A DNA stretch of 53,850 bases from Bacilli bacterium (lineage in GTDB: Bacteria; Bacillota_I; Bacilli_A; RF39; UBA660): positions 1-53,850 of the forward strand of contig JAQVVC010000001.1 of assembly GCA_028699175.1 (NCBI GenBank), given 5' to 3'. Every line of letters starts with the position of its first letter. Positions within the stretch are counted from its first letter, which is position 1. The position numbers were made by a program, and so were the translations under genes. Under the pieces are notes generated by a model. It ran no database searches, was not told where the DNA came from, and was given only the letters and a program-made list of their open reading frames with translations. This document shows positions 40,004-53,850 of this stretch, piece after piece.

Positions 40004-40007
40004 AATA

Positions 40008-41201
40008 ATGCATAGAGAAGATTTTCCAATGCTTAAACAAGACTACATTTATTTAGATAATGGGGCAACAACATTTAAACCACAAATAGTTATCAATGCT
40101 ATTAATGATTATTATTGTAATTATTCAGCAAATGCTCATCGAGGCGACTATTCAATTAGTTATAAAGTTGATCTTGAATATGAAGGAGCAAGAAAAAAAG
40201 TTGCTGAATTTATCAATGCGGATATAAATGAAATCGTATTTAATAGTGGTGCAACTGAAGGATTAAATACCATAGTAACTGGTTTTTTTGATAATTTACT
40301 TGAGCCGGGTGATGAAATTATTATTAGTAAAAGTGAGCATGCTAGTAATGTTTTACCATGGTTTAGATTAGCTAATAAAAACAATTCAAAAATTGTCTAT
40401 GCTCCACTAGATGCAAATTTACATATTACTTTAGAAGGAATAAAAAGTGTTATTACATCTAATACAAAAATAATTGCTTTAGCAGAAACAACAAATGTTG
40501 TAGGAGACGTAAGACCAATTAAAGAAATTTGTGAATATGCTCATAAAAATAATATTTTTGTTGTTGTAGATGGAGCCCAAAGTGTACCTCATAAAAAAAT
40601 AGATGTAAAAGATAATGATGTTGATTTTTTAGTATTTTCCGGTCATAAAATGTGTGGCCCTACTGGTATTGGAGTTTTATATGGAAAAAAAGAATTGTTA
40701 GAAGAATTAGATCCCTTAATACTAGGAGGGGGCATGAATGAATCTTTTGATAGTGAAAAAGAAATATATTTAAAAGAAATACCTCAAAGATTAGAAGCAG
40801 GAACTCCTAATATTGCTGGAGCAATCGGATTAGGTGCAGCTATCGATTATTTACAAAACATAGGAATGGATAATATAAGTATTTATGAACAAAAATTAAA
40901 AGACTATTTAGTATCAAAATTATTAGAAATAGAACATATAAAAATTATCAATGAAGAAGCAGAAAGTGGTATAATAGCATTTAATATTGAGGGAATATTT
41001 AGTCAAGATGTAGCTTATTATTTGAATAAATATAATATATGCACTCGAGCTGGTAATCACTGTGCTAAAATATTAAAAAGTGTGACAGGAGTAAAAAACA
41101 CGGTCAGAGTAAGCCTATATTTTTACAATACTTATGAGGAAATAGATTCCCTAATTGAATTATTAATGGATAAAGAAAAAATATTAAAGGAAATGATATA
41201 A
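40008..41201 (+). CDS. sufS: cysteine desulfurase SufS
   Basis: PLP lysine motif SGHKMCGPTG and catalytic RAGNHCA. Confidence 0.92.
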   Translation: MHREDFPMLKQDYIYLDNGATTFKPQIVINAINDYYCNYSANAHRGDYSISYKVDLEYEGARKKVAEFINADINEIVFNSGATEGLNTIVTGFFDNLLEPGDEIIISKSEHASNVLPWFRLANKNNSKIVYAPLDANLHITLEGIKSVITSNTKIIALAETTNVVGDVRPIKEICEYAHKNNIFVVVDGAQSVPHKKIDVKDNDVDFLVFSGHKMCGPTGIGVLYGKKELLEELDPLILGGGMNESFDSEKEIYLKEIPQRLEAGTPNIAGAIGLGAAIDYLQNIGMDNISIYEQKLKDYLVSKLLEIEHIKIINEEAESGIIAFNIEGIFSQDVAYYLNKYNICTRAGNHCAKILKSVTGVKNTVRVSLYFYNTYEEIDSLIELLMDKEKILKEMI

Positions 41202-41630
41202 GTGGATACTGAATTAAAAAGACAAATTATGTTAGAAAATTATTCCAATCCTTTTCATAAAGAAACAAAAGGTGAAGATTATATTAAAACCAACGCCAAT
41301 AATATTTCTTGTATTGATGATATAAATTTATATTTGAAAATAGAGAATAATATCATTAAAGATGCTTACTTTGATGGTGAAGCATGTGCAATAAGTACTT
41401 CAAGTACATCGATAATGCTTAAAAATATTATAAATAAAAGCATCAATGATGTAAAAGAATATATTAATAATTTTGAGAATATGATTTATGAAAAAGAGTA
41501 TAATAAAGAAATCTTAAAAGAAGCTCTTGTCTATGATGAAATTTATAAACAAGAAAATCGAAAAACATGTGCAACACTTCCTTATGAAGCTTTAAAAAAA
41601 GCAATTGATAAAAATAAAGAAATATGCTAA
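41202..41630 (+). CDS. sufU: SufU (IscU-like) sulfur-transfer / scaffold protein
   Basis: GTG start abutting the sufS stop. Conserved Cys positions in SCIDD, GEACAIS and KTCATLP. Confidence 0.8.
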   Translation: MDTELKRQIMLENYSNPFHKETKGEDYIKTNANNISCIDDINLYLKIENNIIKDAYFDGEACAISTSSTSIMLKNIINKSINDVKEYINNFENMIYEKEYNKEILKEALVYDEIYKQENRKTCATLPYEALKKAIDKNKEIC

Positions 41631-41684
41631 TATTATTGAGTAAGAAAGCAATTATATAGGACTATAATTAATACCTAATTATAT

Positions 41685-41836
41685 AGAGAGTTAACGCTTG
41701 GTGAAAGTTAATTAATTGGATTAATGAATCTCCCTATTAGTGAAGTTAAAATCTTCCGGTCTTAAGACCGTTATTAAAAAAAAGAAAAATAAAGGATGGT
41801 ACCGTGCATATGCACTCCTAATACCATCTTTTTTTG
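41685..41836 (+). promoter_or_regulatory. T-box leader upstream of serS
   Basis: Stem I motifs AGAGAG (41685-90) and GCTTGGTGAAAG. T-box sequence AAAGGATGGTACCGTG (41791-41806). Terminator arm gatggta (41795-801) / taccatc (41822-28) plus T7. Candidate Ser specifier UCU/UCC near 41728-41734, not resolved. Confidence 0.75.
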
Positions 41837-41940
41837 TTAGAAAGGATATATAATGAAAATAATTAATGATATAATAATGTTTAGAAAGACGAGGGCCTTT
41901 TTAAATAAATTAAATAAAGAAAAAGAAAGAAGATGAAAAA

Positions 41941-43221
41941 ATGATAGATATTAAATTAATAAGAGAAAATCAAGAAAAAGTAAAAGAAAATATAAAAAAG
42001 AAATTTCAAGATGATAAATTATCTTTAGTAGATGAAATATATAATTTAGATATAACATATCGCGAAATTAAACAAAAAGCTGATAATTTAAGAAGTGATA
42101 AAAATAAGACTAGTGATAAAATTGGTTCTTATATTCGTGATAAAAACCAAGAAGAGGCAAATAAATTAAAAAATCAAGTTCGAAATTATAGTAATGAAAT
42201 AGCAGCATTAGAAAAAGAAGAATTAAAATTAGAACAAGATATCCGAAATAAAATGATGTTAATTCCCCAAATAATACATGATACAGTTCCAATAGGTAAA
42301 GATGATACAGAAAATGTTGAAATTGAAAAATTTGGCGAACCAATAATACCTGAATTTGAAATACCATATCATGCTGATATTTTAGAAAGAATTGCTGGAC
42401 TTGATAAAGAATCATCAGGTAGAACTAGTGGTTCAGGATTTTATTATTTAATTGGCGATGCTGCTAGATTACATTCAGCTATGATTAGTTATGCCAGAGA
42501 TTTTATGATTGATAAGGGATTTACTTATTGTATTCCTCCCTTTATGATTCGATCTGATGTTGTTACTGGAGTTATGTCATTTACCGAAATGGAAAATATG
42601 ATGTATAAAATTGAAAATGAAGATTTATATTTGATTGGTACAAGTGAACACTCTATAATAGGAAGATACAAAGATCAAATAATAAAAGATGAAAGTCTTC
42701 CCATTACTTTAACTTCTTACTCACCTTGTTTTAGAAAAGAAGTAGGAGCTCATGGTATTGAAGAAAGAGGAATATATAGGGTTCATCAATTTGAAAAACA
42801 AGAAATGGTAGTATTATGTAATGAAGAAGATCATTTAGATTGGTATAACAAAATGTGGTCATACACGGTTGAGTTTTTTAGAAGTTTAGATATTCCTGTT
42901 CGAACTTTAGAATGCTGTTCTGGGGATTTAGCTGATTTAAAAGTTAAATCATGTGATGTCGAAGCATGGAGTCCAAGACAAAAAAAATATTTTGAAGTTG
43001 GTTCTTGTTCAACTTTAGGAGATGCTCAAGCTAGAAGACTAGGAATTAGAACTAAAACTAATAAAGGCACCAAATATGTTTATACTCTTAATAATACGAT
43101 ATTAGCAACACCAAGAGGTTTAATTGCTCTTCTAGAAAACAATGTAAATGAAGATGGTAGCATTAATATCCCGATAGTTTTAAGACCATATATGGGGAAT
43201 AAAGAATTAATTAAACCATAA
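41941..43221 (+). CDS. serS: serine--tRNA ligase
   Basis: N-terminal coiled-coil arm and a class II core (GTSEHSI, FRKEVGAHG, YRVHQFEKQE, NNTILATPR). Confidence 0.93.
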   Translation: MIDIKLIRENQEKVKENIKKKFQDDKLSLVDEIYNLDITYREIKQKADNLRSDKNKTSDKIGSYIRDKNQEEANKLKNQVRNYSNEIAALEKEELKLEQDIRNKMMLIPQIIHDTVPIGKDDTENVEIEKFGEPIIPEFEIPYHADILERIAGLDKESSGRTSGSGFYYLIGDAARLHSAMISYARDFMIDKGFTYCIPPFMIRSDVVTGVMSFTEMENMMYKIENEDLYLIGTSEHSIIGRYKDQIIKDESLPITLTSYSPCFRKEVGAHGIEERGIYRVHQFEKQEMVVLCNEEDHLDWYNKMWSYTVEFFRSLDIPVRTLECCSGDLADLKVKSCDVEAWSPRQKKYFEVGSCSTLGDAQARRLGIRTKTNKGTKYVYTLNNTILATPRGLIALLENNVNEDGSINIPIVLRPYMGNKELIKP

Positions 43222-43585: not shown

Positions 43586-43607
43586 TTAAATGAAAGGGAA
43601 GAAGAAA

Positions 43608-43985
43608 ATGGAAAAGAAAGAGATTATTAGTAGCATCTCTGCATGGGGACAAGGAGAAATATATTTAGGAGTAGTAGGAGCTGTTCGTACTGGTAAATCG
43701 ACATTTATAAAAAAAGTAATCGAAAATTTAATAATTCCTAATATTAAAGATGAAGATGATAAAAAAAGATGTTTAGATGAAACTCCACAAAGTGCTCCTG
43801 GTAAAACCATTATGACTACTGAACCTAAATTTGTACCCTCTACTGGTGCTATGATAACAATTGATGAATTTACAACTAATATTAAATTAATTGATTGTGT
43901 TGGTTATATAATAAAATCAAGTAATGGTTATGAAGACGATTTAGGAAATCCTAGGCTTGTTAAAACTCCTTGGGGTGTTATATAA
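43608..43985 (+). pseudogene. spoIVA: 5' fragment of spoIVA (first ~122 codons), interrupted
   Basis: MEKKEIISSISAWGQGEIYLGVVGAVRTGKSTFIKK...TPQSAPGKTIMTTEPKFVP...LIDCVGY...GYEDDLGNPRLVKTPW tracks the B. subtilis SpoIVA N-terminus (492 aa) up to TPW (TGG 43971-73). It then reads GVI-stop into unrelated DNA. Confidence 0.85.
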
Positions 43986-44090
43986 AAATGGATACCCCTT
44001 AAATAACAGCACAAACCCTTATAATATAAGGCATAATGATATATTTTCTTACTAAGCTTTGCATTTAAATTATTAAGAAAAGGAGAAATT

Positions 44091-45065
44091 ATGTTGAAAA
44101 CAGAAAATTATTATGAAAAGTCCTTTACTGATTTAGCAAAGTTATATTATGATAAATTTCAAATTCCATTTCCTATTTCATTATTAAAAGCAGTTGAAAA
44201 TAAAGAAATAAAAACTAAAATAATAAATTGCTTAATTTCTGGTGAATTATATAATTATTATGATGATAGAAAATTCCGTATAAATAAAATAAATAATAAA
44301 ATTGATTATGTTGAATTGATAAATTTAATAAAACAAAGCATGGATGAAATAGGATATGATTATCAAAAAATGATTAATGATATTAATTCTGTAGTTAATC
44401 TTAGACTTAATGGAAAAACATTTTCTTTTGAAGAACATTTAGAGGCACTAGTACTTGCTCAATTGAGCAATCATCGATGGGGCGATGAAACAATAATTAG
44501 AAACAGAGAAAATTTAAGATATATTTTTAAATTTTACAATAGAGAATATTTAAAAAAAATCGATCCCGAAGTTTTAACTAAAGAAGTAATAAATATAAAT
44601 TGTGGTAATGCTTCAATATATAGACAAATGAAAGCATTAAGTTATAATATAACAATACTAGAAAAAATTGAAAAAGATTATGAACACTTAGATTGTTTTG
44701 TTGCATCAGCTGAACCGAATACAATAGCCAATATATTGTATGATGGTAAATATAAACTAAATCAAGTAGGAAAAGCTTTTGCATTAGATTATTTAAAAAA
44801 AGTTGGAATAAACACTTGTAAATCGGATTCACAAATAACTAGATTATTTGGTTCTAATAGATTATCTTTAGTCAATAATCATATAGCTACAGCTTTAGAA
44901 ACTATGTCAATAATAAAAAAAATAACAAACGATCCATTAATTTCTGAAATAGAAGTTAATTCTTTGTTGTGGCAATTTTGTTTGCCAAGAGGTGCAAATA
45001 TATGTACTAAAAATCCAAATTGTTATTTATGTAAATTAAATCATTTGTGTAATTATAACAATTAG
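44091..45065 (+). CDS. HhH-GPD / endonuclease III-like superfamily protein
   Basis: HhH-like LNQVGKAFALDYLKKVG followed by KSDSQITRLFG. C-terminal Fe-S-type Cys cluster CTKNPNCYLCKLNHLC (C-x5-C-x2-C-x5-C, against x6 in EndoIII). Confidence 0.5.
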   Translation: MLKTENYYEKSFTDLAKLYYDKFQIPFPISLLKAVENKEIKTKIINCLISGELYNYYDDRKFRINKINNKIDYVELINLIKQSMDEIGYDYQKMINDINSVVNLRLNGKTFSFEEHLEALVLAQLSNHRWGDETIIRNRENLRYIFKFYNREYLKKIDPEVLTKEVININCGNASIYRQMKALSYNITILEKIEKDYEHLDCFVASAEPNTIANILYDGKYKLNQVGKAFALDYLKKVGINTCKSDSQITRLFGSNRLSLVNNHIATALETMSIIKKITNDPLISEIEVNSLLWQFCLPRGANICTKNPNCYLCKLNHLCNYNN

Positions 45066-45143
45066 TAATATCGTATTTTTATATAACTTGCAGAAAAGAT
45101 ATAAAAGTATTATAATAAATCTATAAAATGAAAGGGAAATTTA

Positions 45144-45707
45144 ATGAAAAATAAAGAAACTGTTATTAATTTCAATGAAATTAAATTTGAAACAGAGAGA
45201 TTAATTATTAGAAGAATTAAAAAAGAAGATTGGCAAGACTATAATGAAATTATGGGAAACGAATTAACTATGAATTTTTTAGGACGTGCTAATACTTTAG
45301 AAGAAGTTAAAGGTTATGTGGAAAATCAAAGTAATCAAGATTATAATAACTTAAGTGGAAATTATGCTATCGTTTTAAAAGAAGAAAACAAAGTAATAGG
45401 TCAATTTGGATTAGAAATTAATACTAAACATTCAAAAGCTTCGATTAGTTATCTATTTAATAGTAAGTACTGGAATAAAGGGTATGCAATAGAGTGTGCT
45501 AAATTTATGGTGGATTATGCTTTTAATGAAATTAATTTAAATAGAATAGAAGCAGATTGTGTAAAAGAAAATGAAGCATCCTTAAAAATATTTAAGAAAT
45601 TAAATATGAATTTTGAGGGGGAATTTAAAGAATCTCGTTATAATAAAAGACTAAACAAATTTTTTGATGTAGTATATTATGCGATATTAAGAAGCGACTA
45701 TAAATGA
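45144..45707 (+). CDS. GNAT family N-acetyltransferase (RimJ/RimL-like)
   Basis: ETERLIIRRIKKEDWQDY..., YWNKGYAIE and NRIEADCVKENEASLKIFKKLNM. Confidence 0.8.
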   Translation: MKNKETVINFNEIKFETERLIIRRIKKEDWQDYNEIMGNELTMNFLGRANTLEEVKGYVENQSNQDYNNLSGNYAIVLKEENKVIGQFGLEINTKHSKASISYLFNSKYWNKGYAIECAKFMVDYAFNEINLNRIEADCVKENEASLKIFKKLNMNFEGEFKESRYNKRLNKFFDVVYYAILRSDYK

Positions 45708-45778
45708 ACTTAATAATGTATTTTATTATACTAATAAATTAGAATTAAAAGCAAAATTAGAGTAACTTTTTCAAAATA

Positions 45779-45817
45779 ATTACAAACTGTATAAAGAGTT
45801 GTGATTACAAACTGTAT
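45779..45817 (+). repeat. tandem direct repeat attacaaactgtataaagagt; the second copy is split by the IS
   Basis: Copy 1 is at 45779-45799. Copy 2 starts at 45804-45817 (attacaaactgtat) and resumes after the IS at 47402-47408 (aaagagt). Confidence 0.7.
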
Positions 45818-47393
45818 GTTAGTGTAAAGAGTTTTTGGGATTTTTAGAAGGATTCATTAAAAATATAATTGTATTTTAAAATTAATAACGAAAGTTGTTA
45901 ATTTTTTAGTATTTATAAGATAAAGCAATTGTTGGTAACTTTGGAAGTTTTGGTTTAGTATCTTTATGATACATATCAAAGATACTATAATTAATATTTT
46001 CTAAATCAATAATAATTTGTTCTTTATTATTGTGGTTGTTTAAATATAATTTTTTTAAATTGTAATTATTTTTATATAACATACGATGTTCCATTAGTTT
46101 GTCTATCATTTTTAAAGAATAAGCTTTAGGCCTTGAAGTAAATAGATCAGCTATATTATGCGAAATATTAGATTCCATACAACATCTTAAGTTATTGTTA
46201 TAAGAATTAAGAATGTATTGCCAATTATTAAGAATATATGTTTCCTTTTCCAAGATGGTTTTTTGTCGATGAGGATAACTTATTATTAAATTAGTGCACA
46301 GTTCTTTAAAAGTTTGTTTATCATCATTTAAAATATAGGTAGTAGCGTTATATTCTAAAAGTTCATTTTGACATATGTGATGCAGTGCCTGTTTGAAATG
46401 GAATTTATCAAGTCCAAAAATAACATTGGTATTAGTGGTAAATTTAAAATAATTTTTAATATTTTTAATCCATCCAGCACCATCACCCATATAATATATA
46501 TTTTTAATTTTATCTGTATTATATACTTTGTATATGTAATCTAGAACATTATCAACAATAGAACCACTATAGTTAGAAAATATCATTTTATTAATTAGTT
46601 TAATTCGATTACCATCATTGTTGATTTTATCGAAAACTACAATTGACTTTATAATTGCATCTTTCTTATTATTGCGTTGGGTATGAATAAATTTTTCATC
46701 AGCCATGATGTAGATACTATCTACATCATTAATCGGTTCACATTTAGGAATTGGCATAACGCTTTTTAGAATGATATTACGTACTATTTGCCTAGATAAT
46801 AAACAATCCTTTGATAAGTTTATTCTATTACCAATCATTTCAGAAATAAGACTACCGGTCTTTTGAAATGAATATTTAGTAGAATAATCAATCACCAATG
46901 CTTTAATGTAAGGATCAAAATAATCGTACTTATTAAGACCTAGAAACCAATCTAAATAACAAAATGAGCCTTTATTATGCTTGTCTGAATAGAATGTTCT
47001 TTTAAATGTTATTTCTCCAAAGATGGTCATAAGTGATCTTGTATGATGGGCTTTAATATGATACTTTCTTTTCCTGTCATAAGAGTTTCGATATCCTCTG
47101 TCTATGGCTTCAAATATAGTTATTAAGCTTTCTTTAGCAATTTTACATAAAGACTTGTCCAGTGATGAAAGAAGATTAATATAATTGAATACAGTGGGAT
47201 TGCTATCTATTTTATTCAATTCTTGTTCAAGGTTATTAGAAAAGTTTGAAATAATCATATTTTTTAATACATTTATATAATTGTTTGGTATAATATTCAT
47301 ATGGAAGACCTCCTAAAATATTGTTTTACAATTATATTTTAACATGAAGGTCTTCCTTTTGTATGTGTAATCCCAAAACTATTTTACACAATC
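45818..47393 (-). mobile_element. 1576-bp insertion sequence with imperfect terminal inverted repeats and 8-bp target-site duplication
   Basis: Left end GTTAGTGTAAAGAGTTTTTGGGATT. The reverse complement of the right end is GATTGTGTAAAATAGTTTTGGGATT. AACTGTAT is duplicated at 45810-45817 and 47394-47401. Confidence 0.85.
45906..47300 (-). CDS. IS transposase (possibly ISLre2/UPF0236-like)
   Basis: 464-aa single ORF filling the IS, with SD GGAGG upstream on the minus strand. The family guess rests on size and Firmicute context only. Confidence 0.7.
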   Translation of the reverse strand: MNIIPNNYINVLKNMIISNFSNNLEQELNKIDSNPTVFNYINLLSSLDKSLCKIAKESLITIFEAIDRGYRNSYDRKRKYHIKAHHTRSLMTIFGEITFKRTFYSDKHNKGSFCYLDWFLGLNKYDYFDPYIKALVIDYSTKYSFQKTGSLISEMIGNRINLSKDCLLSRQIVRNIILKSVMPIPKCEPINDVDSIYIMADEKFIHTQRNNKKDAIIKSIVVFDKINNDGNRIKLINKMIFSNYSGSIVDNVLDYIYKVYNTDKIKNIYYMGDGAGWIKNIKNYFKFTTNTNVIFGLDKFHFKQALHHICQNELLEYNATTYILNDDKQTFKELCTNLIISYPHRQKTILEKETYILNNWQYILNSYNNNLRCCMESNISHNIADLFTSRPKAYSLKMIDKLMEHRMLYKNNYNLKKLYLNNHNNKEQIIIDLENINYSIFDMYHKDTKPKLPKLPTIALSYKY

Positions 47394-47409
47394 AACTGTA
47401 TAAAGAGTA

Positions 47410-47438
47410 TTGACAAATATCCAAAAAACAGTTATCAT
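47410..47438 (+). promoter_or_regulatory. sigma-A type promoter of the peptide-modification cluster
   Basis: TTGACA (47410-15), 17-nt spacer, TATCAT (47433-38). Lies 9 bp from the IS target duplication. Confidence 0.6.
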
Positions 47439-47446
47439 ATCACTAA

Positions 47447-47521
47447 ATTTGGGAGTTGTCCCCAAATCTAATGATACAACAAGAAGTTATTGGGGATTCT
47501 AATTTTAGAATCTCCTTTTTT
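47447..47521 (+). promoter_or_regulatory. leader with three mutually exclusive hairpins ending in an intrinsic terminator (attenuator candidate)
   Basis: tttggg (47448-53) / cccaaa (47461-66). ccccaa (47460-65) / ttgggg (47490-95). Terminator ggggattcta (47492-501) / tagaatctcc (47506-15) plus T-run. Confidence 0.5.
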
Positions 47522-47568
47522 AAAAAAAAGATAAAATATATAAGTTTATAAATTTATAGGGGGAATTT

Positions 47569-49569
47569 ATGGAACAAGAAAAAATTACAGTAGTAATACC
47601 AATGTATAATAGTAAAGATTATATAGAACGTTGTTTAAACTCGATTTGTAATCAAACTTATAAAAATTTAGAAATAATAGTTATTGATGACGGAAGCCAA
47701 GATAAAAGTAAAAGTATAGTAGAGGAATTTCAGCAAAAAGATTCTAGAATAAAATATTTTTATCAAGAAAATCAAGGACCTGGTGTAGCGAGAAATGTCG
47801 GAATAGAAAAAGGAACTGGAAAATATATTTCGTTTATTGATAGTGATGATGAAATAAGAGAAAACTTTTTTGAAATTTTATCTAACACAATACAAGAAAA
47901 TGATAGTTTTGCATTAACTGGTGGATATATGATTTTTCCTGATGGTACATTTCAAAAATCATTTTTAACAAATGAAACTGAAACAAGAAATTTTAAAGTA
48001 CCTATATCTTGTAATAAACTATTTAATTTTGAATTAATAAGAGAAAAAAATTTAAGATTTAAAAGTTTATATTATGCTGAAGACATAGACTTCTGGGGCA
48101 GACTTTTAATGATAAATGATAAGTTTTCTATAGCAAATGATTATTTATATTTGTGTTATTTTAGAGAAGATTCTTTAACAAGAAGTTATACCGAAAAAGA
48201 TACTATTTATCAAATTTTTCAAGTTATTTCAAATATAGAAGATAGTGCAAAAATAAACAATAAGTATGAAAGTTTAAAAGAAAACTTTGAATTCTTGAAT
48301 ATAAAAGAAGTTTTAATTAGAGCAATGAAACAAATTAGTCAGCTTTCAGATTTTGGAGAATATGATGTTATTAAAATGTTATCATATGTCGAAGATAAAT
48401 ATCCTAATTGGTATTACAATAAATACATAAAATTATCATTTGATAAATACAGAAAAAAGAGACTAGAGCTATTGTTTAAAAAAGACTATAAGGGGATAAT
48501 CAATTATCTTCGCCAAATGAATTCAGGTCATGTAATAAAAACAGATGAAGAAATGCTTGCAGAAAACATAGTAGATCATTCTATTTCAGTTGAAAAAGAT
48601 CAAATAATTCAAATAAGATATAAAAGCACAGAATGTAATCCTTTAGTAGTCCAATTAATCAGAGAAATACAAAATCGAGGAGCGGTAGCTATTCCCAGAT
48701 TACAAGATTTAGACTTAGAAAGAGTCGCAAGGGAAACCTATGATAGTGCAGCTATGCAACAGTTAGCTGAAATAATTACCAAAGAAGCAGATTTTTATAG
48801 TTCATATATATCTATAGGTTATAGTGAAAATGATTATGATTTTTCAAGAAATAATGAAAATCCTGCTTTTAGATTGTTGATTAGTTATTTAACTGAATAT
48901 AACAAAATTGTAAGAAGCAAAAAAAGTGTTAGTGTATTTTATCCGTCTCCATTAGATGCACATAAAGCAAAAATGACTACCGAAGATTATAAAAAATATG
49001 CATTTTCGATTATGAATTATGATTATAAAAGTTTAAAAGTAAAGATGGAGCATTTAAAAGAAATGATGGATAAAACATCTCAAGTAGCAATAATAGGTAA
49101 AGATACAGACTTAACTTTTTCAAAAAAAGATATTCCATCTATTATTTTATCTGGAGAAGTAAATATCCCCGATGGAGAAGTTTATACATCTCCTATAAAA
49201 GATAGTGTAAATGGAACTATAAGGTTTAATGTTGCTACTAAATATATGGGCAATATATTTGAAAGTATATTATTAGAATTTAAAAATGGGAAAGTCGTAG
49301 ATTTTGATTGTAGTGACCCTAATGAATTAAGAAATATATTGGATATAGATAAAGGAAGTAGATTTATAGGTGAGTTTGCATTAGGAGTCCATCCACTTAT
49401 ATTATATCCAATAATTAATACATTGCATGATGAAAAAATTTATGGAAGTTTTCATTTAGCATTAGGTCAAGCATATAGAAATGCTTATAATGGAAATGAC
49501 TCAAATGTGCATTGGGATTTAATAAATATTCAAAGAGATGATTTTGATACAGGCAAAATTTTTCTTTGA
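47569..49569 (+). CDS. fusion protein: family-2 glycosyltransferase (N-terminal) plus M29 (AmpS/PepS-type) aminopeptidase (C-terminal); the 3' tail is frameshifted
   Basis: GT2: ITVVIPMYNSKDYIERCLNSICNQTYKNLEIIVIDDGSQD and IDSDDE. M29: NIPDGEVYTSP, GEFALG, HLALG and NVHWDL. The conserved tail FFDDILIRENGEFV... continues in another frame at 49562-49666. Confidence 0.75.
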   Translation: MEQEKITVVIPMYNSKDYIERCLNSICNQTYKNLEIIVIDDGSQDKSKSIVEEFQQKDSRIKYFYQENQGPGVARNVGIEKGTGKYISFIDSDDEIRENFFEILSNTIQENDSFALTGGYMIFPDGTFQKSFLTNETETRNFKVPISCNKLFNFELIREKNLRFKSLYYAEDIDFWGRLLMINDKFSIANDYLYLCYFREDSLTRSYTEKDTIYQIFQVISNIEDSAKINNKYESLKENFEFLNIKEVLIRAMKQISQLSDFGEYDVIKMLSYVEDKYPNWYYNKYIKLSFDKYRKKRLELLFKKDYKGIINYLRQMNSGHVIKTDEEMLAENIVDHSISVEKDQIIQIRYKSTECNPLVVQLIREIQNRGAVAIPRLQDLDLERVARETYDSAAMQQLAEIITKEADFYSSYISIGYSENDYDFSRNNENPAFRLLISYLTEYNKIVRSKKSVSVFYPSPLDAHKAKMTTEDYKKYAFSIMNYDYKSLKVKMEHLKEMMDKTSQVAIIGKDTDLTFSKKDIPSIILSGEVNIPDGEVYTSPIKDSVNGTIRFNVATKYMGNIFESILLEFKNGKVVDFDCSDPNELRNILDIDKGSRFIGEFALGVHPLILYPIINTLHDEKIYGSFHLALGQAYRNAYNGNDSNVHWDLINIQRDDFDTGKIFL

Positions 49570-49667
49570 TGATATTTTAATTCGAGAAAACGGAGAATTT
49601 GTTCCTGATAATTTAAAAACTCTAAATGATGAACGAGCAAGAATATTAACAAAAAGGAGAAGATAGT

Positions 49668-50774
49668 ATGGAAAGAGTGCCGTCACTAATTGTTTTAAAT
49701 CTCACATCTGACTGCAATTTAAGATGTAAATATTGTTACGCTTCGGCTGGGACATTTAAAGAATATATGACATCTGAATGTGCGATAGAAATAATAAGAC
49801 AAGTAGCAAAATACAACAATACAATTGAATTGTTATTTCATGGAGGAGAACCGTTATTGGTCTTTGATGTAATCAAAGAGGTCATAGATTATTGTAAAAA
49901 CAATCTGAAAAGTAAAGAAATAAGATATTATATACAGACTAATGGAGTGTTATTAACTGCAGAAAAAGCCAAGTATTTGATAGATGAAAACGTAGAAATC
50001 TGTTTGAGTATTGATGGACATACTGAAACAAGTAATCAATGCAGAATTTATCCTGCTGGGCAATCAAGTTTAAAAATGTTGAAAAATCGAATTGATTTAT
50101 TAAAAAGTATGAATTATAATACAACTGTTTTAGCAGTATTAAATAAGAAAAATAAGAACGAAATAGAAGATTTTATAGATTTTTTAATAAATAATAAAAT
50201 ATTTAATTTTTCTTTAAATTATTTTATAAAAGGAGGAAGAGGGAATGAAAACAGTGATCTCGCTTTAAGCCCTGTAGAGTTATATGAAGTAACAAAGAAT
50301 GTAATATCAAAGATTTTGAGCTATCACGAAAAAAACATAAAAGTAGTTGAAAGAAATATTTCTCATCTTTTAAGGAACATATTTACAGAAAAAAAAGGCT
50401 ATATGTGTATGAATAGCCCGTGTGGTGCTGGGAACCATTTATTAGGATATACACCAAATGGTGATATATATCCCTGCGATGATTTAAGTTCTGTTGAGCA
50501 ATTTAAAATAGGTAATATTTTTGATGGAGATATTAAAGATATATTAAAAGATAACGATGTAATTAATTTTTTTAATTATTGTTCTTATGAAAATATTCCT
50601 AAATGTTGTGATTGTAAAATTAAAAATAAATGTGGTGCTGGATGTGCTTCGAGAAAATTTTATGAAAATGGGACAATCTATGAAGTGGATCCAATTTGTG
50701 AATTTTATAAATTAATAGTACCATATATTGAAAATTTAATGATCGAAAACCCATCAATAAAGGAATTAGTATAA
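49668..50774 (+). CDS. radical SAM enzyme with SPASM domain (peptide maturase 1)
   Basis: CNLRCKYCYA (CxxxCxxC), FHGGEPLL, and auxiliary-cluster cysteines YMCMNSPCGAG, YPCD and CCDCKIKNKCGAGCASR. Confidence 0.85.
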   Translation: MERVPSLIVLNLTSDCNLRCKYCYASAGTFKEYMTSECAIEIIRQVAKYNNTIELLFHGGEPLLVFDVIKEVIDYCKNNLKSKEIRYYIQTNGVLLTAEKAKYLIDENVEICLSIDGHTETSNQCRIYPAGQSSLKMLKNRIDLLKSMNYNTTVLAVLNKKNKNEIEDFIDFLINNKIFNFSLNYFIKGGRGNENSDLALSPVELYEVTKNVISKILSYHEKNIKVVERNISHLLRNIFTEKKGYMCMNSPCGAGNHLLGYTPNGDIYPCDDLSSVEQFKIGNIFDGDIKDILKDNDVINFFNYCSYENIPKCCDCKIKNKCGAGCASRKFYENGTIYEVDPICEFYKLIVPYIENLMIENPSIKELV

Positions 50775-50775
50775 A

Positions 50776-51462
50776 ATGAAAACTACAGTAATTAGAAGAA
50801 TAATGAAAAATCAAACTAACATAATTAACAACTTGTTAAAAAACAACAACAAAATAATTTTTATAAAATCTATACCTCAAACAGGAAAATCAACAATATT
50901 AAAAAAATTATTTGATATGAATCATGAAGAGATAAAATTATTTATAACTGGATGTGATCCTAAAAACATGTCTTTAATTAATGATGAAATATTAGCAGAA
51001 ATTGAAAGTTGTCTAATCAAAAATAAAGAAAAAAATATTACGATTTATTTTGATGAATATTATAATGATGAAATATTATATTATTTGCAAACTAATAAAC
51101 ACAAAAATATAAAGGTATTTATAACTACAAACAAAATAATAAAAAAAATGAATTTTAATTATGGAATAATAGATATATATAAAGATATTTTTAACGAAAT
51201 AGATAAATATATGCTTGAAGAATATAATATTAATATTGAGGACAAATTATCAAAAAGAAAAATATCGGTAACTGAATTGATTAAAATAGCAGGTTGGCTT
51301 GATAAAAACGCTAATTTAAATTACAATATTAATGAAATTTTAAATATATTGAAAGATGAATTAGATGAATTAGAAAAAGCTAGATTTTTACCAACAACAA
51401 CAGCAATATTATGTATACATAAATATTTTAGAACTTTTAAAACGTTTGATTTTGAAGATTAG
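50776..51462 (+). CDS. small P-loop-like protein of unknown function
   Basis: Deviant Walker A SIPQTGKSTILKKL and Walker B-like ITIYFDEYY. Abuts the upstream stop. Confidence 0.5.
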   Translation: MKTTVIRRIMKNQTNIINNLLKNNNKIIFIKSIPQTGKSTILKKLFDMNHEEIKLFITGCDPKNMSLINDEILAEIESCLIKNKEKNITIYFDEYYNDEILYYLQTNKHKNIKVFITTNKIIKKMNFNYGIIDIYKDIFNEIDKYMLEEYNINIEDKLSKRKISVTELIKIAGWLDKNANLNYNINEILNILKDELDELEKARFLPTTTAILCIHKYFRTFKTFDFED

Positions 51463-51477
51463 TAAGGAGATTTTATT

Positions 51478-52785
51478 ATGGATTTATCACTTATAGTAGA
51501 AAAAGGAATAGACATTTTGATTAATAAAAACACAGGGAAATGGATAGCTATAAAAAATAATGAAGAACAAGATTTAAAAATTATAAAAAAAATCAGCCGA
51601 GAATTATTAATAGATAAATTCGGGAACAAATTTGGTACATATTTATGGAGCAAAAGAATTGAAATGTCAGAAAAAATTGAAGACAAGTTTTGTCATCAAA
51701 TGAATTGCTTAGTTATAAATGTTACTGATAGCTGTAATTTAAAATGCCAATATTGTTATGCTAACAATGAAAATAAAATTAAAATGATTGATTCTGAAAC
51801 CATAATTAAAGCCGTAGAAAAATTTTCTGAAAGAATATATCCAAATAATTTAACTGTTATTTTTCATGGTGGAGAGCCTTTGCTTGCTTTTGAAAAAATT
51901 AAAGAAGCAGTAGAGAATCTTAAACATATTAAAAATGTCGTTTACTCTTTACAAACGAACGGAACTTTACTAACTCAGGAAAAATTAATTTTTTTCAAAA
52001 AAAATAAATTTTTAATAGGGTTAAGTATAGATGGAATCAGTGATGAAAACAATTCACTAAGAAATATAGACGGAAAGATAAAAGATTATACAAATAAAAA
52101 TTTGGAAATTCTAAAAAATAATAAATCATTTGTAAAGCCTCTTATTGTAGTACATAAAAAAAATATTAACAATATAAAAGAAATAGTAAACTTTTTTAAA
52201 AATAATGATTTCGATGGACTCGTATGTAACTTATTGTTTGAACCAGAAAATTTTGACAATTGTGTTTTAGATGATTCATTATTTGATAACATGAGATATA
52301 TTCTTGATTTAATGATGGAAAATTATGATGGAGAAAATTTTGCGTTTTCTGAACGAGACATCAGATTGTTATTTAGAAAAGTAATATATGGATTTATAGA
52401 TGAATATATGTGTATGAATAGTCCATGTGGTGCAGGAAAAGAAACAGTTGCAGTAGACTACAAAGGGGATGTATGGGCTTGCAATGTTTTGATTTCAAAA
52501 ACAGAAAAGGATAACTACATGGGCAATATATTTGAAAATTCAATTAATGAAATTTTAAGTAAAGAAGTAAAAATTTCCAAAAGAAATATTGATTCAATTC
52601 CTATATGTAATGAGTGTCCATATAAAAAATTATGTGGTGGTGGTGGATGTTGTGGTTTTGTTACTAATCAAAGAAATAATTTGAAAGATAAAAGTATATA
52701 TTGTGACTACCATTTTAAGCTTATAACATATATGATAGATAGTGTTATGAGATATTACGAAAGTGATATTATAACAAATTTTTAA
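51478..52785 (+). CDS. radical SAM enzyme with SPASM domain and ~75-aa N-terminal extension (peptide maturase 2, possible RRE)
   Basis: CNLKCQYCYA, FHGGEPLL, YMCMNSPCGAG, WACN and CNECPYKKLCGGGGCCGF. A paralogue of the enzyme at 49668-50774. Confidence 0.85.
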   Translation: MDLSLIVEKGIDILINKNTGKWIAIKNNEEQDLKIIKKISRELLIDKFGNKFGTYLWSKRIEMSEKIEDKFCHQMNCLVINVTDSCNLKCQYCYANNENKIKMIDSETIIKAVEKFSERIYPNNLTVIFHGGEPLLAFEKIKEAVENLKHIKNVVYSLQTNGTLLTQEKLIFFKKNKFLIGLSIDGISDENNSLRNIDGKIKDYTNKNLEILKNNKSFVKPLIVVHKKNINNIKEIVNFFKNNDFDGLVCNLLFEPENFDNCVLDDSLFDNMRYILDLMMENYDGENFAFSERDIRLLFRKVIYGFIDEYMCMNSPCGAGKETVAVDYKGDVWACNVLISKTEKDNYMGNIFENSINEILSKEVKISKRNIDSIPICNECPYKKLCGGGGCCGFVTNQRNNLKDKSIYCDYHFKLITYMIDSVMRYYESDIITNF

Positions 52786-52800
52786 AGGAGGTGAAAAATA

Positions 52801-52923
52801 ATGACTAAGGACAAAAAATATGATGCAATCATGAAGAAATTAGCTACAAAAAGAGCAAAAGTAAATGTACCTACTTATGACAGTAAGGTAATGATGGCTC
52901 ATTGGAGCAATGGTTACAATTAA
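52801..52923 (+). CDS. 40-aa candidate RiPP precursor peptide (not in the ORF track)
   Basis: ATG 52801 lies about 9 nt after AAAGGAGGTG. MTKDKKYDAIMKKLATKRAKVNVPTYDSKVMMAHWSNGYN, TAA at 52921-23, with a terminator immediately after. No Cys; Lys-rich N-terminal half and aromatic C-terminus. Confidence 0.65.
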   Translation: MTKDKKYDAIMKKLATKRAKVNVPTYDSKVMMAHWSNGYN

Positions 52924-52924
52924 G

Positions 52925-52952
52925 AAAAAAGCTACTAATTGTAGCTTTTTTT
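52925..52952 (+). terminator. intrinsic terminator after the precursor gene
   Basis: aaaaaagctac-taatt-gtagctttttt. Confidence 0.75.
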
Positions 52953-52976
52953 GTATATTGTTTGTGGTTAATATGT

Positions 52977-53402
52977 TTATAAATCACAAATTTTTTCAAT
53001 TGAGATATTAAATTTTTTAGCAATTAAGAGTATATATTTTGTTAGAATTAGTACCTTACCATTTAGAAAAGCAGAAATTGTTGATTGTGTTGTATTCAAT
53101 TGCTTAGCTAATTTAATTTGTGTTAAATTATTATCATTGCATATTTTTTTTATGTTTTTACCTATTATAATTTTATCAAGTTCTTTAATTTGATTTTTAT
53201 TTTGAATAGGAGATAAGCCAGCTAAATAATCCATTGAGATATTATAAAACTTTGCTAATAAAAGTAATTTCTTTAGTGGTATTGTTTCTAGTCCGTTTTC
53301 CCATTTACTATAATTCGCTTGTTGAGTATTTATAATATTAGCAATATATTCTTGTGTATAATTATTTTTAATCCTTATCGCTTTTAATCTTTTAAAGTTC
53401 AT
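52977..53402 (-). CDS. XRE-family regulator with two tandem HTH domains
   Basis: Two Cro/C1-type units: LKAIRIKNNYTQEYIANIINTQQANYSKWENG and NIKKICNDNNLTQIKLAKQLNTTQSTISAFLNG. Confidence 0.8.
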   Translation of the reverse strand: MNFKRLKAIRIKNNYTQEYIANIINTQQANYSKWENGLETIPLKKLLLLAKFYNISMDYLAGLSPIQNKNQIKELDKIIIGKNIKKICNDNNLTQIKLAKQLNTTQSTISAFLNGKVLILTKYILLIAKKFNISIEKICDL

Positions 53403-53416
53403 ATAATTATACCTCT

Positions 53417-53850
53417 TTACTTATTATAAGTGTAATCAAATTTTCCTAATACTCCATCAATAGAAAAATTATATTTTACTGCTAATATATACAATTTATC
53501 TAATTTTATTTGAGTTTTCCCATTTTCATAGGCAGCATAGGATGACTGTTTAATCTTTAAATCTTCTGCTAAATTTTCTTGTGATAATCTATTATATCTT
53601 CTTATCTTTCTAATTTGTTTGCCTAAATCATCAAAATTAGCTGATAGAGGATTGATCATATATCTTTTATTATTAGTGATTCCAGTTAAATAATCTATAC
53701 TTAAATTATAATAGTCTGATAATTTTTCGATAATTGGAAGTGGAAAAGATACTATACCATTTTCCATAGCAGTATATATTCCTCTTTTTATTCCCAAAAT
53801 TTCAGATATTTCTTTTTGTGTTAAATCCAAGTCTTCTCTTGTAAATTTTA
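53417..53850 (-). CDS. second XRE-family regulator with two HTH domains (5' end probably outside the window)
   Basis: LTQKEISEILGIKRGIYTAMENG and IRKIRRYNRLSQENLAEDLKIKQSSYAAYENG. The frame stays open to the window edge (KFTREDLDLTQ...), so the track's TTG start is doubtful. Confidence 0.7.
   Translation of the reverse strand, partial: KFTREDLDLTQKEISEILGIKRGIYTAMENGIVSFPLPIIEKLSDYYNLSIDYLTGITNNKRYMINPLSANFDDLGKQIRKIRRYNRLSQENLAEDLKIKQSSYAAYENGKTQIKLDKLYILAVKYNFSIDGVLGKFDYTYNK

What the first reader, a model, noticed from the sequence alone, without database searches (positions are those of the whole stretch)
47410..52952. Candidate RiPP gene cluster: two paralogous radical-SAM/SPASM enzymes, a P-loop protein, the GT2-aminopeptidase fusion and a Cys-free precursor
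The unit runs from promoter and leader to terminator with tightly spaced genes (49666/49668; 50774/50776; a 15-nt gap; then the precursor with a strong SD). Both rSAM proteins have CxxxCxxC plus SPASM-type auxiliary cysteines and share the identical YMCMNSPCGAG block. The second has a ~75-aa N-terminal extension that could be a peptide-recognition (RRE/PqqD-like) domain. The precursor has no cysteine, which excludes sactipeptide and ranthipeptide thioether chemistry. That leaves C-C or C-O cross-links on aromatic residues (streptide, darobactin/dynobactin or three-residue-cyclophane type chemistry), epimerisation, or something new, possibly followed by glycosylation and aminopeptidase trimming. 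No transporter or immunity gene is visible in the window. The cluster rides on the element that interrupts spoIVA and sits next to an IS, so it is probably mobile.
Basis: partly seen in the sequence, partly recalled or inferred. Interest (0 to 1): 0.8.

Follow-up and report, generated by a model that had tools for sequence, protein, structure and literature searches.

The report
Uncharacterised radical-SAM peptide-maturation gene cluster
This is a real gene cluster for making a small modified peptide: its 40-residue substrate carries a 14-residue motif kept almost unchanged in distantly related gut and digester bacteria, and no paper in the searchable library describes the family.

Summary

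**Window genes.** The window encodes a GT2-M29 fusion, a radical-SAM/SPASM enzyme "A", a small P-loop protein, a radical-SAM/SPASM enzyme "B" with an N-terminal extension, and a Cys-free 40-aa ORF. A near-consensus promoter and a terminator bracket them.

**Conservation.** rSAM A, the P-loop protein, rSAM B and a small ORF recur together wherever contigs are long enough, in more than a dozen metagenomic or MAG loci. One locus lacks rSAM A. Enzyme identity falls to about 30%, yet the small ORF keeps [LIV]-P-x-[YF]-[DN]-x3-[LIM]-M-x-H-[WY]-[ST]-[ND]. It occurs in 1 to 4 copies, sometimes with almost no leader.

**Variable partners.** These are a glycosyltransferase (GT2, or GT9 with ADP-heptose genes), an M29 aminopeptidase, a GNAT, a transglutaminase-like protease and ABC exporters.

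- The GNAT at 45144-45707 belongs to the cluster.
- The IS (45817-47393) sits inside the cluster.
- The GT2-M29 gene carries a 1-nt insertion that shifts its last ~32 codons.

**Limits.** No curated family threshold is reached, and no paper was found. The chemistry cannot be computed. My best guess is radical cross-linking in H-[WY]-[ST]-N.

The parts
45144..45707 (+). GNAT (Acetyltransf_3, RimJ/RimL-like) acetyltransferase. Part of the conserved cluster: a tailoring N-acetylase or a self-protection enzyme.
   Evidence: Pfam 6.9e-28. Homologues lie next to the cluster in L055, L001, L004, L006, L078 and L083. A GNAT of the same Pfam family overlaps the end of rSAM A in L092. In L055 it lies 280 bp from the GT2-M29 gene with no IS between them.
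45817..47393 (-). Insertion sequence (UPF0236-family transposase ORF 45906-47300). It separates the GNAT from the operon promoter.
   Evidence: Pfam PF06782, 7e-37. Absent from the otherwise 99.9% identical L055. Flanked by the 7-bp direct repeat AACTGTA (45810-45816 and 47394-47400) and imperfect terminal inverted repeats, 17 of 21.
47410..47438 (+). Sigma-70-type promoter-like site for the operon.
   Evidence: TTGACA-17-TATCAT, 11 of 12, the best in the region. Identical in L055. The IS ends about 10 bp upstream of the -35 hexamer.
47440..47515 (+). 5' leader with one hairpin followed by a terminator-like hairpin and a U run. Possible attenuator.
   Evidence: -22.4 kcal/mol, z = -2.78. Not clearly conserved in L001. 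No Rfam match.
47569..49666 (+). GT2 glycosyltransferase fused to an M29 aminopeptidase. Frame 1 ends at 49569, and the last ~32 codons continue in the +1 frame to 49666 because of a 1-nt insertion.
   Evidence: Pfam Glycos_transf_2 at residues 7-132 and Peptidase_M29 at 328-655. Intact 698-aa orthologue in L001. Indel shown in the alignment with L055, L076 and L001. The same truncated allele is in L094 and L095.
49668..50774 (+). Radical SAM/SPASM enzyme A, with no N-terminal peptide-binding domain.
   Evidence: Pfam Radical_SAM, Fer4_12 and SPASM. CxxxCxxC at residue 16, and CX2CX5CX3C at 313. Closest solved structures are CteB and anSME. Identity to cluster homologues is 35% (L011), 48-53% (L004, L006, L009) and 72% (L001). 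About 28 unnamed protein clusters are at least 47% identical.
50776..51462 (+). Small AAA+/STAND-like P-loop NTPase, specific to this cluster type.
   Evidence: Walker A GK[ST], Walker B DE[YF]Y and a conserved TGC[DN]P motif. AF2 model pLDDT 90. Foldseek matches AAA+ ATPases at TM 0.3-0.49. Only 15 representatives at E<1e-3 among 1.84 billion proteins. Present in every locus with enough sequence.
51478..52785 (+). Radical SAM/SPASM enzyme B, with an N-terminal RRE-like domain of about 75 aa (about 51478-51700).
   Evidence: Pfam. AF2 pLDDT 86, with N-terminal strands 3-8, 11-16, 22-26 and 34-36 and helices 41-48 and 50-63. Full-length Foldseek matches to the peptide maturases CteB, TigE and SuiB. 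No PqqD sequence signal.
52801..52923 (+). Precursor peptide, MTKDKKYDAIMKKLATKRAKVNVPTYDSKVMMAHWSNGYN. The conserved motif P24-N37 spans 52870-52911.
   Evidence: Strong SD AAGGAGGTGA. Homologous small ORFs with the same motif occur in all related loci, in 1-4 copies.
52924..52952 (+). Intrinsic terminator ending the operon.
   Evidence: 12-bp stem followed by a T run.

Best explanation
This is a biosynthetic gene cluster for a ribosomally made, post-translationally modified peptide (RiPP) of a family I could not find described.

Shown:
- The substrate is the 40-aa ORF at 52801-52923.
- Its C-terminal 18 residues, VPTYDSKVMMAHWSNGYN, carry the family motif [LIV]-P-x-[YF]-[DN]-x3-[LIM]-M-x-H-[WY]-[ST]-[ND].
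- The conserved core machinery is rSAM/SPASM A, a small AAA+-like NTPase and rSAM/SPASM B.
- A glycosyltransferase, an M29 aminopeptidase and a GNAT are recurrent partners.

Inferred mechanism:
1. The RRE-like N-domain of rSAM B binds the peptide. In relatives with 2-4 tandem, nearly leaderless copies, the recognition element must lie inside the repeat unit itself, probably in the P-x-Y-D...[LIM]-M half.
2. The two SPASM enzymes each perform one radical modification in or near the invariant H-[WY]-[ST]-[ND] tetrad. The most likely chemistry is an aromatic-to-side-chain cross-link between residues i and i+2 (Trp/Tyr to Asn, and/or His to Ser/Thr), as in darobactin and triceptide chemistry.
3. 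rSAM A has no binding domain of its own. It probably works with the NTPase or on the product of rSAM B.
4. The GT2 domain glycosylates the peptide. Ser36 of the H-W-S tetrad is the candidate site.
5. The M29 domain trims the leader from the N-terminus, plausibly stopping before the invariant X-Pro bond.
6. The GNAT acetylates the new N-terminus or protects the producer.

In this particular genome the cluster carries an IS insertion and a C-terminal frameshift in GT2-M29, so its output may be reduced.
For: Domain content.

Synteny of rSAM A, P-loop, rSAM B and a small ORF:
- All four are seen in L001, L004, L006, L009, L011, L029, L053, L055, L076, L078, L079, L083, L087 and L092.

Precursor motif:
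- P, M8 and H are invariant in 21 distinct core units. The aromatic position 11 is W in all 21, and Y in a further locus, L092.
- rSAM B identity falls to 28-37% across the same loci.

Independent pattern scan:
- 6 of the 7 low-GC hits in 185,579 species genomes, and 15 of 16 metagenome hits, are such small ORFs. Homologues of the cluster genes flank them wherever the held DNA reaches far enough.

Precursor architecture:
- Multi-core precursors begin 3-10 residues before the first unit.

rSAM B:
- Predicted fold and full-length matches to CteB, TigE and SuiB.

Glycosylation link:
- GT2 fused to M29 in four loci. GT9 with HldE/GmhA/GmhB-type genes in others. An rSAM A-GT2 fusion, P0162.
- Every cluster where a GT was seen has Ser at motif position 12. 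The three clusters where none was seen have Thr.

Proteases:
- A transglutaminase-like protease was seen only in multi-core clusters.

Secretion and regulation in relatives:
- ABC exporters and LytTR/HK/AgrB regulators.

GNAT:
- Recurs across clades and overlaps rSAM A in L092.
Against: - No modification has been observed, so the chemistry is inference from motif conservation and family resemblance.
- Neither rSAM reaches any NCBIfam equivalog cut-off. The best scores are 171 bits for A and 144 for B, against cut-offs of 340-450.
- The RRE assignment has no sequence support.
- One relative, L013, lacks rSAM A, so two modifications are not universal.
- The Ser/GT correlation rests on about 5 against 2 independent lineages.
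- No exporter is seen in the window, nor in the 5 kb beyond it in L082.
- The window copy has an IS and a frameshift, and a near-identical contig (L094) has rSAM B split in two. This hints at decay in this lineage.
Confidence: 0.75

Rival explanations
1. The peptide is a sacrificial scaffold for a small peptide-derived cofactor or metabolite, in the manner of PQQ or mycofactocin. The rSAMs would cross-link two or three residues, peptidases would degrade the rest, and the GT would decorate the small product.
For: - The few motif residues are extremely invariant across deep divergence.
- An exopeptidase (M29) and a GT2 sit with SPASM rSAMs. Mycofactocin biosynthesis likewise uses a radical SAM maturase (TIGR03962) and a GT2, MftF (TIGR03965), both of which appear as weak matches.
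- No exporter lies in or just beyond the window.
- Several copies of the unit per precursor would raise yield.
Against: - Relatives carry dedicated ABC exporters and quorum-type LytTR/HK/AgrB regulators.
- Distribution is patchy and genomic contexts vary.
- No partner oxidoreductase is conserved.
- MftC scores 87 bits against a cut-off of 265, and PqqE appears only as a weak PDB match.
- The conserved region is 14 residues long, more than a cofactor precursor needs.
Confidence: 0.12
2. The window copy is a decaying, non-productive version of the cluster. The family is functional elsewhere, but this genome no longer makes the product.
For: - An IS lies between the GNAT and the promoter.
- A 1-nt insertion truncates the M29 C-terminus, and the allele is seen in three assemblies.
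- A contig differing by a single base (L094) has rSAM B split into 282- and 139-aa ORFs.
Against: - The promoter, all Shine-Dalgarno sites, both rSAMs, the NTPase and the precursor are intact in the window.
- Proteins are 100% identical to L055 apart from the indel.
- The frameshift removes only about 32 terminal residues, downstream of the last Pfam-matched position 384 of 406.
- The GNAT keeps its own upstream region.
Confidence: 0.25
3. The cluster is an HXS-like system, in which paired radical SAM enzymes and a small partner mature a His-x-Ser-containing effector. It would act in phage defence or cell-envelope function rather than producing a secreted natural product.
For: - The best NCBIfam match of rSAM A is HxsB (171 bits).
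- The architecture is two rSAMs plus a small accessory protein.
- The substrate has an invariant H-x-S/T.
- The HXS system was recently shown to install a modification on an SHRSS motif (PMC13128918).
Against: - HxsB scores 171 bits against a cut-off of 370, barely above PapB, CbpB and DynA.
- HxsC and HxsD are not among the listed matches.
- The substrate is a 40-aa peptide with no peptidoglycan-binding domain and no five-fold HxS array.
- PADLOC gives only generic viperin-core similarity.
- GT, aminopeptidase, GNAT and exporters are not HXS parts.
Confidence: 0.04

Closest known systems
Daropeptides and triceptides (rSAM/SPASM enzymes forming aromatic-to-C-beta cross-links between residues i and i+2, e.g. 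DarE, DynA, YhhB, GrrM/OscB, AmcB)
   Same: - SPASM-type radical SAM maturase acting on a Cys-free core with an invariant aromatic-x-polar triplet, here [WY]-[ST]-N.
- Darobactin's W3-S4-K5 C-C link has the same i/i+2 spacing (PMC10125368).
- DynA, YhhB, GrrM and AmcB all appear among the NCBIfam matches.
   Different: - Scores are far below every cut-off (DynA 161 and 138 bits against 450; YhhB 111 against 445).
- Two maturases instead of one.
- An obligatory AAA+-like NTPase.
- Glycosyltransferase, M29 and GNAT partners.
- A 14-residue conserved unit, and nearly leaderless tandem cores in relatives.
CteB / SCIFF and other sactipeptide or ranthipeptide maturases
   Same: - CteB is the closest solved structure for both enzymes by sequence (5wgg) and for rSAM B by fold.
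- The rSAM B model aligns to CteB over its full length, N-terminal domain included.
- PapB and SCIFF models are among the top NCBIfam matches.
   Different: - The precursor has no cysteine, and Cys is not conserved in the family, so thioether chemistry is excluded.
- Scores are below the cut-offs.
HXS antiphage system (HxsA-D)
   Same: Two radical SAM enzymes and a small partner protein modify a His-x-Ser motif. HxsB is the top NCBIfam match of rSAM A.
   Different: - HxsB cut-off not reached, and HxsC and HxsD are not among the listed matches.
- Small peptide substrate rather than a 214-aa periplasmic effector.
- Firmicute-type hosts.
- Different accessory genes.
Mycofactocin pathway
   Same: An rSAM/SPASM enzyme, a peptidase and a GT2 act on a ribosomal peptide. 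The MftC and MftF models give weak matches.
   Different: - Thresholds not met.
- No MftD- or MftE-type genes were noted in the Pfam lists of the related loci.
- Relatives carry exporters and quorum-type regulators.
- The conserved core is much longer.
Glycocins, and Ser O-heptosylation of autotransporters by BAHT enzymes (from my own knowledge)
   Same: Glycosyltransferases that act directly on Ser, Thr or Cys of peptides or proteins. A GT2 enzyme (glycocins) and an ADP-heptose-dependent transferase (BAHT) parallel the GT2 and GT9 versions of this cluster.
   Different: - No Cys or disulfide hairpin peptide as in glycocins.
- No solved peptide-glycosylating GT appears among the sequence matches.
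- Peptide glycosylation here is inferred, not shown.

Membership tests
rSAM/SPASM-dependent RiPP gene cluster (general) | Radical SAM enzyme with CxxxCxxC and a SPASM auxiliary-cluster domain | tested here: met
   Pfam Radical_SAM and SPASM in both enzymes. Cysteine motifs located.
rSAM/SPASM-dependent RiPP gene cluster (general) | Small precursor gene adjacent to and co-conserved with the maturase | tested here: met
   The small ORF with the conserved motif lies beside the enzymes in every related locus. The pattern scan finds it almost only in that context.
rSAM/SPASM-dependent RiPP gene cluster (general) | Peptide-recognition (RRE/PqqD-like) domain | tested here: inconclusive
   The AF2 N-domain is a beta-sheet plus helices, and full-length Foldseek matches go to CteB, TigE and SuiB. 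There is no PqqD Pfam hit at E<=10 in eight homologues.
rSAM/SPASM-dependent RiPP gene cluster (general) | Demonstrated modification of the peptide | not testable with these tools
   Needs co-expression and mass spectrometry.
Sactipeptide / ranthipeptide | Cysteine donors in the core peptide | tested here: not met
   No Cys in the window precursor, and Cys is not conserved across the family.
Triceptide / daropeptide | Aromatic-x-X3 motif in the core | tested here: met
   The [WY]-[ST]-[ND] triplet is conserved in all 22 distinct core units examined.
Triceptide / daropeptide | Maturase scoring above the curated family cut-off (DynA, YhhB, GrrM/OscB, AmcB, FxsB) | tested here: not met
   Best scores are 161 against 450 (DynA), 111 against 445 (YhhB), 97 against 310 (GrrM) and 102 against 425 (AmcB).
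Anaerobic sulfatase-maturating enzyme | Score above the TIGR03942 cut-off | tested here: not met
   145 and 122 bits against 349.
HXS system | HxsB, HxsC and HxsD proteins, and an HxsA effector with HxS repeats | tested here: not met
   HxsB scores 171 against 370. HxsC and HxsD are not among the listed NCBIfam matches, and PADLOC gives only viperin-core similarity. The substrate is a 40-aa peptide with one H-W-S.
Mycofactocin | MftC-type maturase above cut-off | tested here: not met
   MftC scores 87 against 265, and MftF 60 against 280.

The most novel reading that the evidence does not exclude
This is a new RiPP class with four unusual properties.
- A dedicated minimal AAA+/STAND-like NTPase is an obligatory partner of a pair of SPASM radical SAM enzymes.
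- The recognition element lies inside each core unit, which allows leaderless tandem cores.
- The two enzymes build an interlocked cross-link on the H-[WY]-[ST]-N tetrad.
- The product is O-glycosylated: with heptose from a dedicated ADP-heptose pathway in the GT9 clade, and with another sugar in the GT2 clade that includes this window.
Probability: 0.3. Interest if true: 0.8.

Novelty: new variant of a known kind. Interest (0 to 1): 0.62.

Why it matters
Radical-SAM RiPPs have yielded unusual chemistry and useful antibiotics such as darobactin and dynobactin. This family offers several things to test:

- A sharply defined Cys-free 14-residue motif.
- Two maturases with different conservation. 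Against the L004, L006 and L009 clusters, rSAM A is 48-53% identical and rSAM B 31-37%.
- An ATPase partner found almost nowhere else.
- Natural variants that swap GT2 for a heptosyltransferase with its own sugar-nucleotide pathway.

It occurs in human-gut, other gut-metagenome and anaerobic-digester bacteria, next to quorum-type regulators and exporters. The products may therefore be signals or bacteriocins in those communities. The tandem, nearly leaderless precursors would also be useful for understanding leader-independent substrate recognition.

Tried and rejected
- **Plasmids and phages.** Megablast of the cluster against both collections gave no match. The precursor pattern found nothing in IMG/VR viral contigs. 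There is no evidence for phage or plasmid carriage.
- **Literature.** Searches for the motif strings, heptosyltransferase or ADP-heptose with RiPP, and glycosylated cyclophane RiPPs found nothing relevant. Two RaS-RiPP surveys do not mention the motif.
- **Pattern hits in Alphaproteobacteria.** 54 of the 61 genome hits fall in one orthologous ~270-aa protein carrying PLFDRLAIMRHWSD. I judged this a single chance match multiplied by orthology. The L060/L081 hit in an Ignavibacteriaceae MAG is also chance.
- **P-loop protein.** Sequence search of the PDB found nothing. The word-based homologue search found 3 proteins. hhalign of its C-terminal part against the rSAM B N-domain showed no similarity, so the idea that it supplies an RRE for rSAM A stays speculative.
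- **RRE by sequence.** Pfam at E<=10 on eight N-domains gave no PqqD hit.
- **Other searches.** PADLOC gave only generic viperin-core similarity. Rfam found nothing in 44000-53850.
- **Leader attenuator.** Its conservation was checked in L001 and was not significant.

Full report
**1. What is in the window**

The window is about 25% G+C. Proteins identical to those of this cluster are labelled "MAG: Bacilli bacterium".

Between 47410 and 52952 on the + strand lie, in order:
- A near-consensus promoter, TTGACA-17-TATCAT, at 47410-47438.
- A 130-nt leader with a hairpin and a terminator-like hairpin.
- A GT2-Peptidase_M29 fusion gene starting at 47569.
- rSAM/SPASM "A" at 49668-50774.
- A 228-aa P-loop ORF at 50776-51462.
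- rSAM/SPASM "B" at 51478-52785.
- A 40-aa ORF at 52801-52923 behind AAGGAGGTGA.
- A terminator at 52924-52952.

The fusion gene's frame ends at 49569. A 1-nt insertion in an A/T run, relative to L055, L076 and L001, puts the last ~32 codons in the +1 frame up to 49666. The same 666-aa product is encoded on contigs from two other samples, one of them 100% identical over 4.6 kb. The allele is therefore probably real.

**2. The small ORF is a conserved substrate**

Homologues of rSAM B are rare: only 13 protein clusters scored below E = 1e-45. I fetched their contigs. Each has a small ORF with the same motif, directly after rSAM B or a few genes upstream:

| Locus | Identity of rSAM B | Small ORF |
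|---|---|---|
| L001 | 68% | ...VPTYNSKVMMAHWSNGYN |
| L004 | 37% | three copies of LPRYDERAIMMHWSNTSNQEKEM |
| L006 | 34% | two copies of LPKYDENSIMMHWSDTS |
| L009, L013 | 31% | ...IPEFDDEALMVHWTN... |
| L011 | 28% | ...VPNFDGTSLMSHWTN... |

A degenerate DNA pattern for P-x-[YF]-[DN]-x3-[LIM]-M-x-H-W-[ST]-[ND] was then scanned independently of the enzymes.
- In 185,579 species genomes it hit 61 loci. Of these, 54 are one unrelated alphaproteobacterial ~270-aa protein at about 0.6 GC. Six are low-GC small ORFs of this family, and one is a stray.
- In metagenomes, 15 of 16 hits are family members. They include 4-copy precursors that begin MKNNLPEYDE..., which is essentially no leader.
- A further clade, L092, has ...LLPDYDKETLMVHYSNTS, with Tyr replacing Trp.

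Across 21 distinct core units, P, M8, H and W are invariant. Position 2 is Y or F, position 12 is S or T, and position 13 is N or D. This conservation, set against about 30% enzyme identity, is the main evidence that the ORF is a genuine precursor.

**3. Cluster composition**

A tblastn map shows which genes are core and which are accessory.

Core (every locus long enough to show it, except that L013 lacks rSAM A):
- rSAM A, the P-loop protein, rSAM B and the precursor.

Accessory:
- GT2 fused to M29: window, L055, L076, L001.
- GT9 with HldE/GmhA/GmhB-type ADP-heptose genes: L004, L006 and L092. GT9 also lies beside the cluster in L075, L078, L083 and L089 (51-55% identical to the L004 GT9; 43% in L089), and more distantly (29%) in L080 and L087.
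- Separate M29 genes: L006, L078, L083.
- A transglutaminase-like protein, seen only in multi-core clusters.
- ABC exporters: L004, L009, L011, L013, L092.
- LytTR/HK, and in L004 also AgrB, regulators: L004, L013.
- A GNAT of the Acetyltransf_3 type: L055, L001, L004, L006, L078, L083, L092. In L092 it overlaps the end of rSAM A.
- One metagenomic protein, P0162, is an rSAM A-GT2 fusion.

The GNAT at 45144-45707 in the window therefore belongs to the cluster. In L055, which is 99.9% identical, it lies 280 bp upstream of the fusion gene. In the window a 1577-bp IS lies between them, ending about 10 bp upstream of the -35 hexamer. The IS spans 45817-47393, has a 7-bp direct repeat AACTGTA and imperfect inverted repeats, and encodes a UPF0236 transposase.

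**4. The proteins**

*The two rSAMs.*
- Neither reaches any NCBIfam cut-off. A scores HxsB 171, PapB 167, CbpB 164, DynA 161 and anSME 145. B scores CbpB 144, HxsB 140, DynA 138 and PapB 138. The cut-offs are 340-450.
- The closest solved structures are CteB and anSME.
- The AF2 model of B (pLDDT 86) has an N-terminal beta-sheet plus two helices. It aligns over its full length with CteB, TigE and SuiB, and over only about 370 columns with anSME. No PqqD signal is found in sequence, so the RRE is supported by fold only.
- rSAM A starts directly at the radical SAM core. Against the L004, L006 and L009 clusters it is better conserved than B (48-53% against 31-37%).

*The P-loop protein.*
- It has Walker A and B motifs and a conserved TGC[DN]P motif.
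- It models confidently (pLDDT 90) as an AAA+/STAND-like fold, with weak Foldseek matches to TRIP13, proteasomal Rpt subunits, Vps4, ORC and an NLR.
- It has only 15 detectable relatives among 1.84 billion representative proteins.

**5. Most likely mechanism**

Shown: a peptide-maturation cluster with a defined substrate motif. Everything below is inferred.

- Tandem precursors lack leaders, so recognition must use the unit itself. I assign the P-x-Y-D...[LIM]-M half to binding by the RRE-like domain of rSAM B.
- I assign the invariant H-[WY]-[ST]-N tetrad to radical chemistry. Trp can be replaced only by Tyr, and the spacing is i/i+2 as in darobactin's W-S-K link. Both fit an aromatic-to-C-beta cross-link, with a second link (His to Ser/Thr, or one involving Met) made by the other enzyme.
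- Every cluster where a GT was seen has Ser at position 12. The three where none was seen have Thr. This makes Ser36 a candidate glycosylation site, but only about 5 against 2 independent lineages support it.
- From general enzymology: broad-specificity aminopeptidases do not cleave X-Pro bonds. The invariant [LIV]-P would then stop M29 trimming and give an 18-residue product in this window.
- The GNAT could cap that new N-terminus or protect the producer.
- The NTPase may help rSAM A engage the peptide. No test supported or excluded this.

**6. Comparison with known systems**

It works like rSAM/SPASM cross-linked RiPPs (daropeptides, triceptides, streptide). It is not a member of any curated family: thresholds are not met, and thioether classes are excluded by the lack of Cys.

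The recently described HXS defence system has paired rSAMs, a small partner and an HxS motif (PMC13128918). It shares the two-rSAM logic and the H-x-S triplet. Its defining proteins and effector architecture are absent here.

A PQQ- or mycofactocin-like cofactor route remains a minority alternative.

**7. Novelty and verdict**

No paper in the searchable library mentions the motif or a heptosylated or glycosylated rSAM RiPP of this kind. Subscription-only literature was not covered.

I rate it a new variant of a known kind: a real, well-delimited, uncharacterised RiPP family with an unusual ATPase partner and unusual precursor architecture.

The copy in this window is slightly damaged. It has the IS and the 3' frameshift, and a sister contig has a split rSAM B. 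I give about a 25% chance that this strain no longer makes the product.

Noticed in passing
window 43590-43985: A SpoIVA N-terminal fragment of 131 aa (Pfam SpoIVA_ATPase positions 1-122 of 237) ends abruptly and is followed by unrelated genes. This fits an element inserted in spoIVA, but the other junction is beyond the window end. L082 shows the next 5 kb (an AMP-binding enzyme and a hybrid histidine kinase) without it.
   Followed up: partly
window 49557-49572: The 1-nt insertion creates ...TTT CTT TGA TGA. From my own knowledge, CUU-UGA is the shifty stop used for +1 frameshifting in prfB. A CUU-to-UUU slip here would restore the orthologous tail (GKIF-L-DDILIRENGEFV...) at the same length as in L055. 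No upstream SD-like stimulator is evident, so this is speculative.
   Followed up: partly
L094 3912-5003 (equivalent to window 51478-52569): A contig differing from the window by one base over 5 kb has rSAM B split into 282-aa and 139-aa ORFs. This suggests inactivating mutations circulate in this population.
   Followed up: partly
window 47440-47515: The 5' leader of the operon folds into a hairpin followed by a terminator-like stem and U run (z = -2.78). CCCCAA in the first hairpin could pair with TTGGGG at the foot of the terminator, as in an attenuator. It has no Rfam match and no clear conservation in L001.
   Followed up: partly
L014-L074 (Alphaproteobacteria, e.g. L014 594-1421): An unrelated ~270-aa protein family in Bradyrhizobium, Afipia and Xanthobacteraceae carries PLFDRLAIMRHWSD, which matches the whole 14-residue precursor pattern. 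I judged it a chance match multiplied by orthology.
   Followed up: partly
window 52977-53830 (- strand): Two adjacent Xre-type regulators, each with two HTH_3 domains, lie convergent to the operon just after its terminator. They may regulate the cluster or the element.
   Followed up: no
window 38605-43221: Housekeeping genes lie upstream: a SufC-like ABC ATPase, a SufBD-core protein, a class-V aminotransferase (SufS-like) and seryl-tRNA synthetase. An Fe-S assembly operon close to two Fe-S enzymes is probably coincidental.
   Followed up: no
L013 9332-9699; L009 10497-11426; L092 10465-11568: Relatives vary in rSAM content. L013 lacks rSAM A. L009, L013 and L092 carry a third radical SAM gene in which Pfam finds no SPASM domain. 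The L009/L013 clade also has two conserved proteins of 332 and 435 aa with no Pfam match between the precursor and the NTPase.
   Followed up: partly
L001 (CAZBQC010000002.1): The contig carrying the 68-72% identical cluster is filed under a Muribaculaceae MAG. It is 26% G+C, and in it the cluster lies a few kb upstream of an S10-type ribosomal protein operon. The taxonomic label may be a binning error.
   Followed up: no
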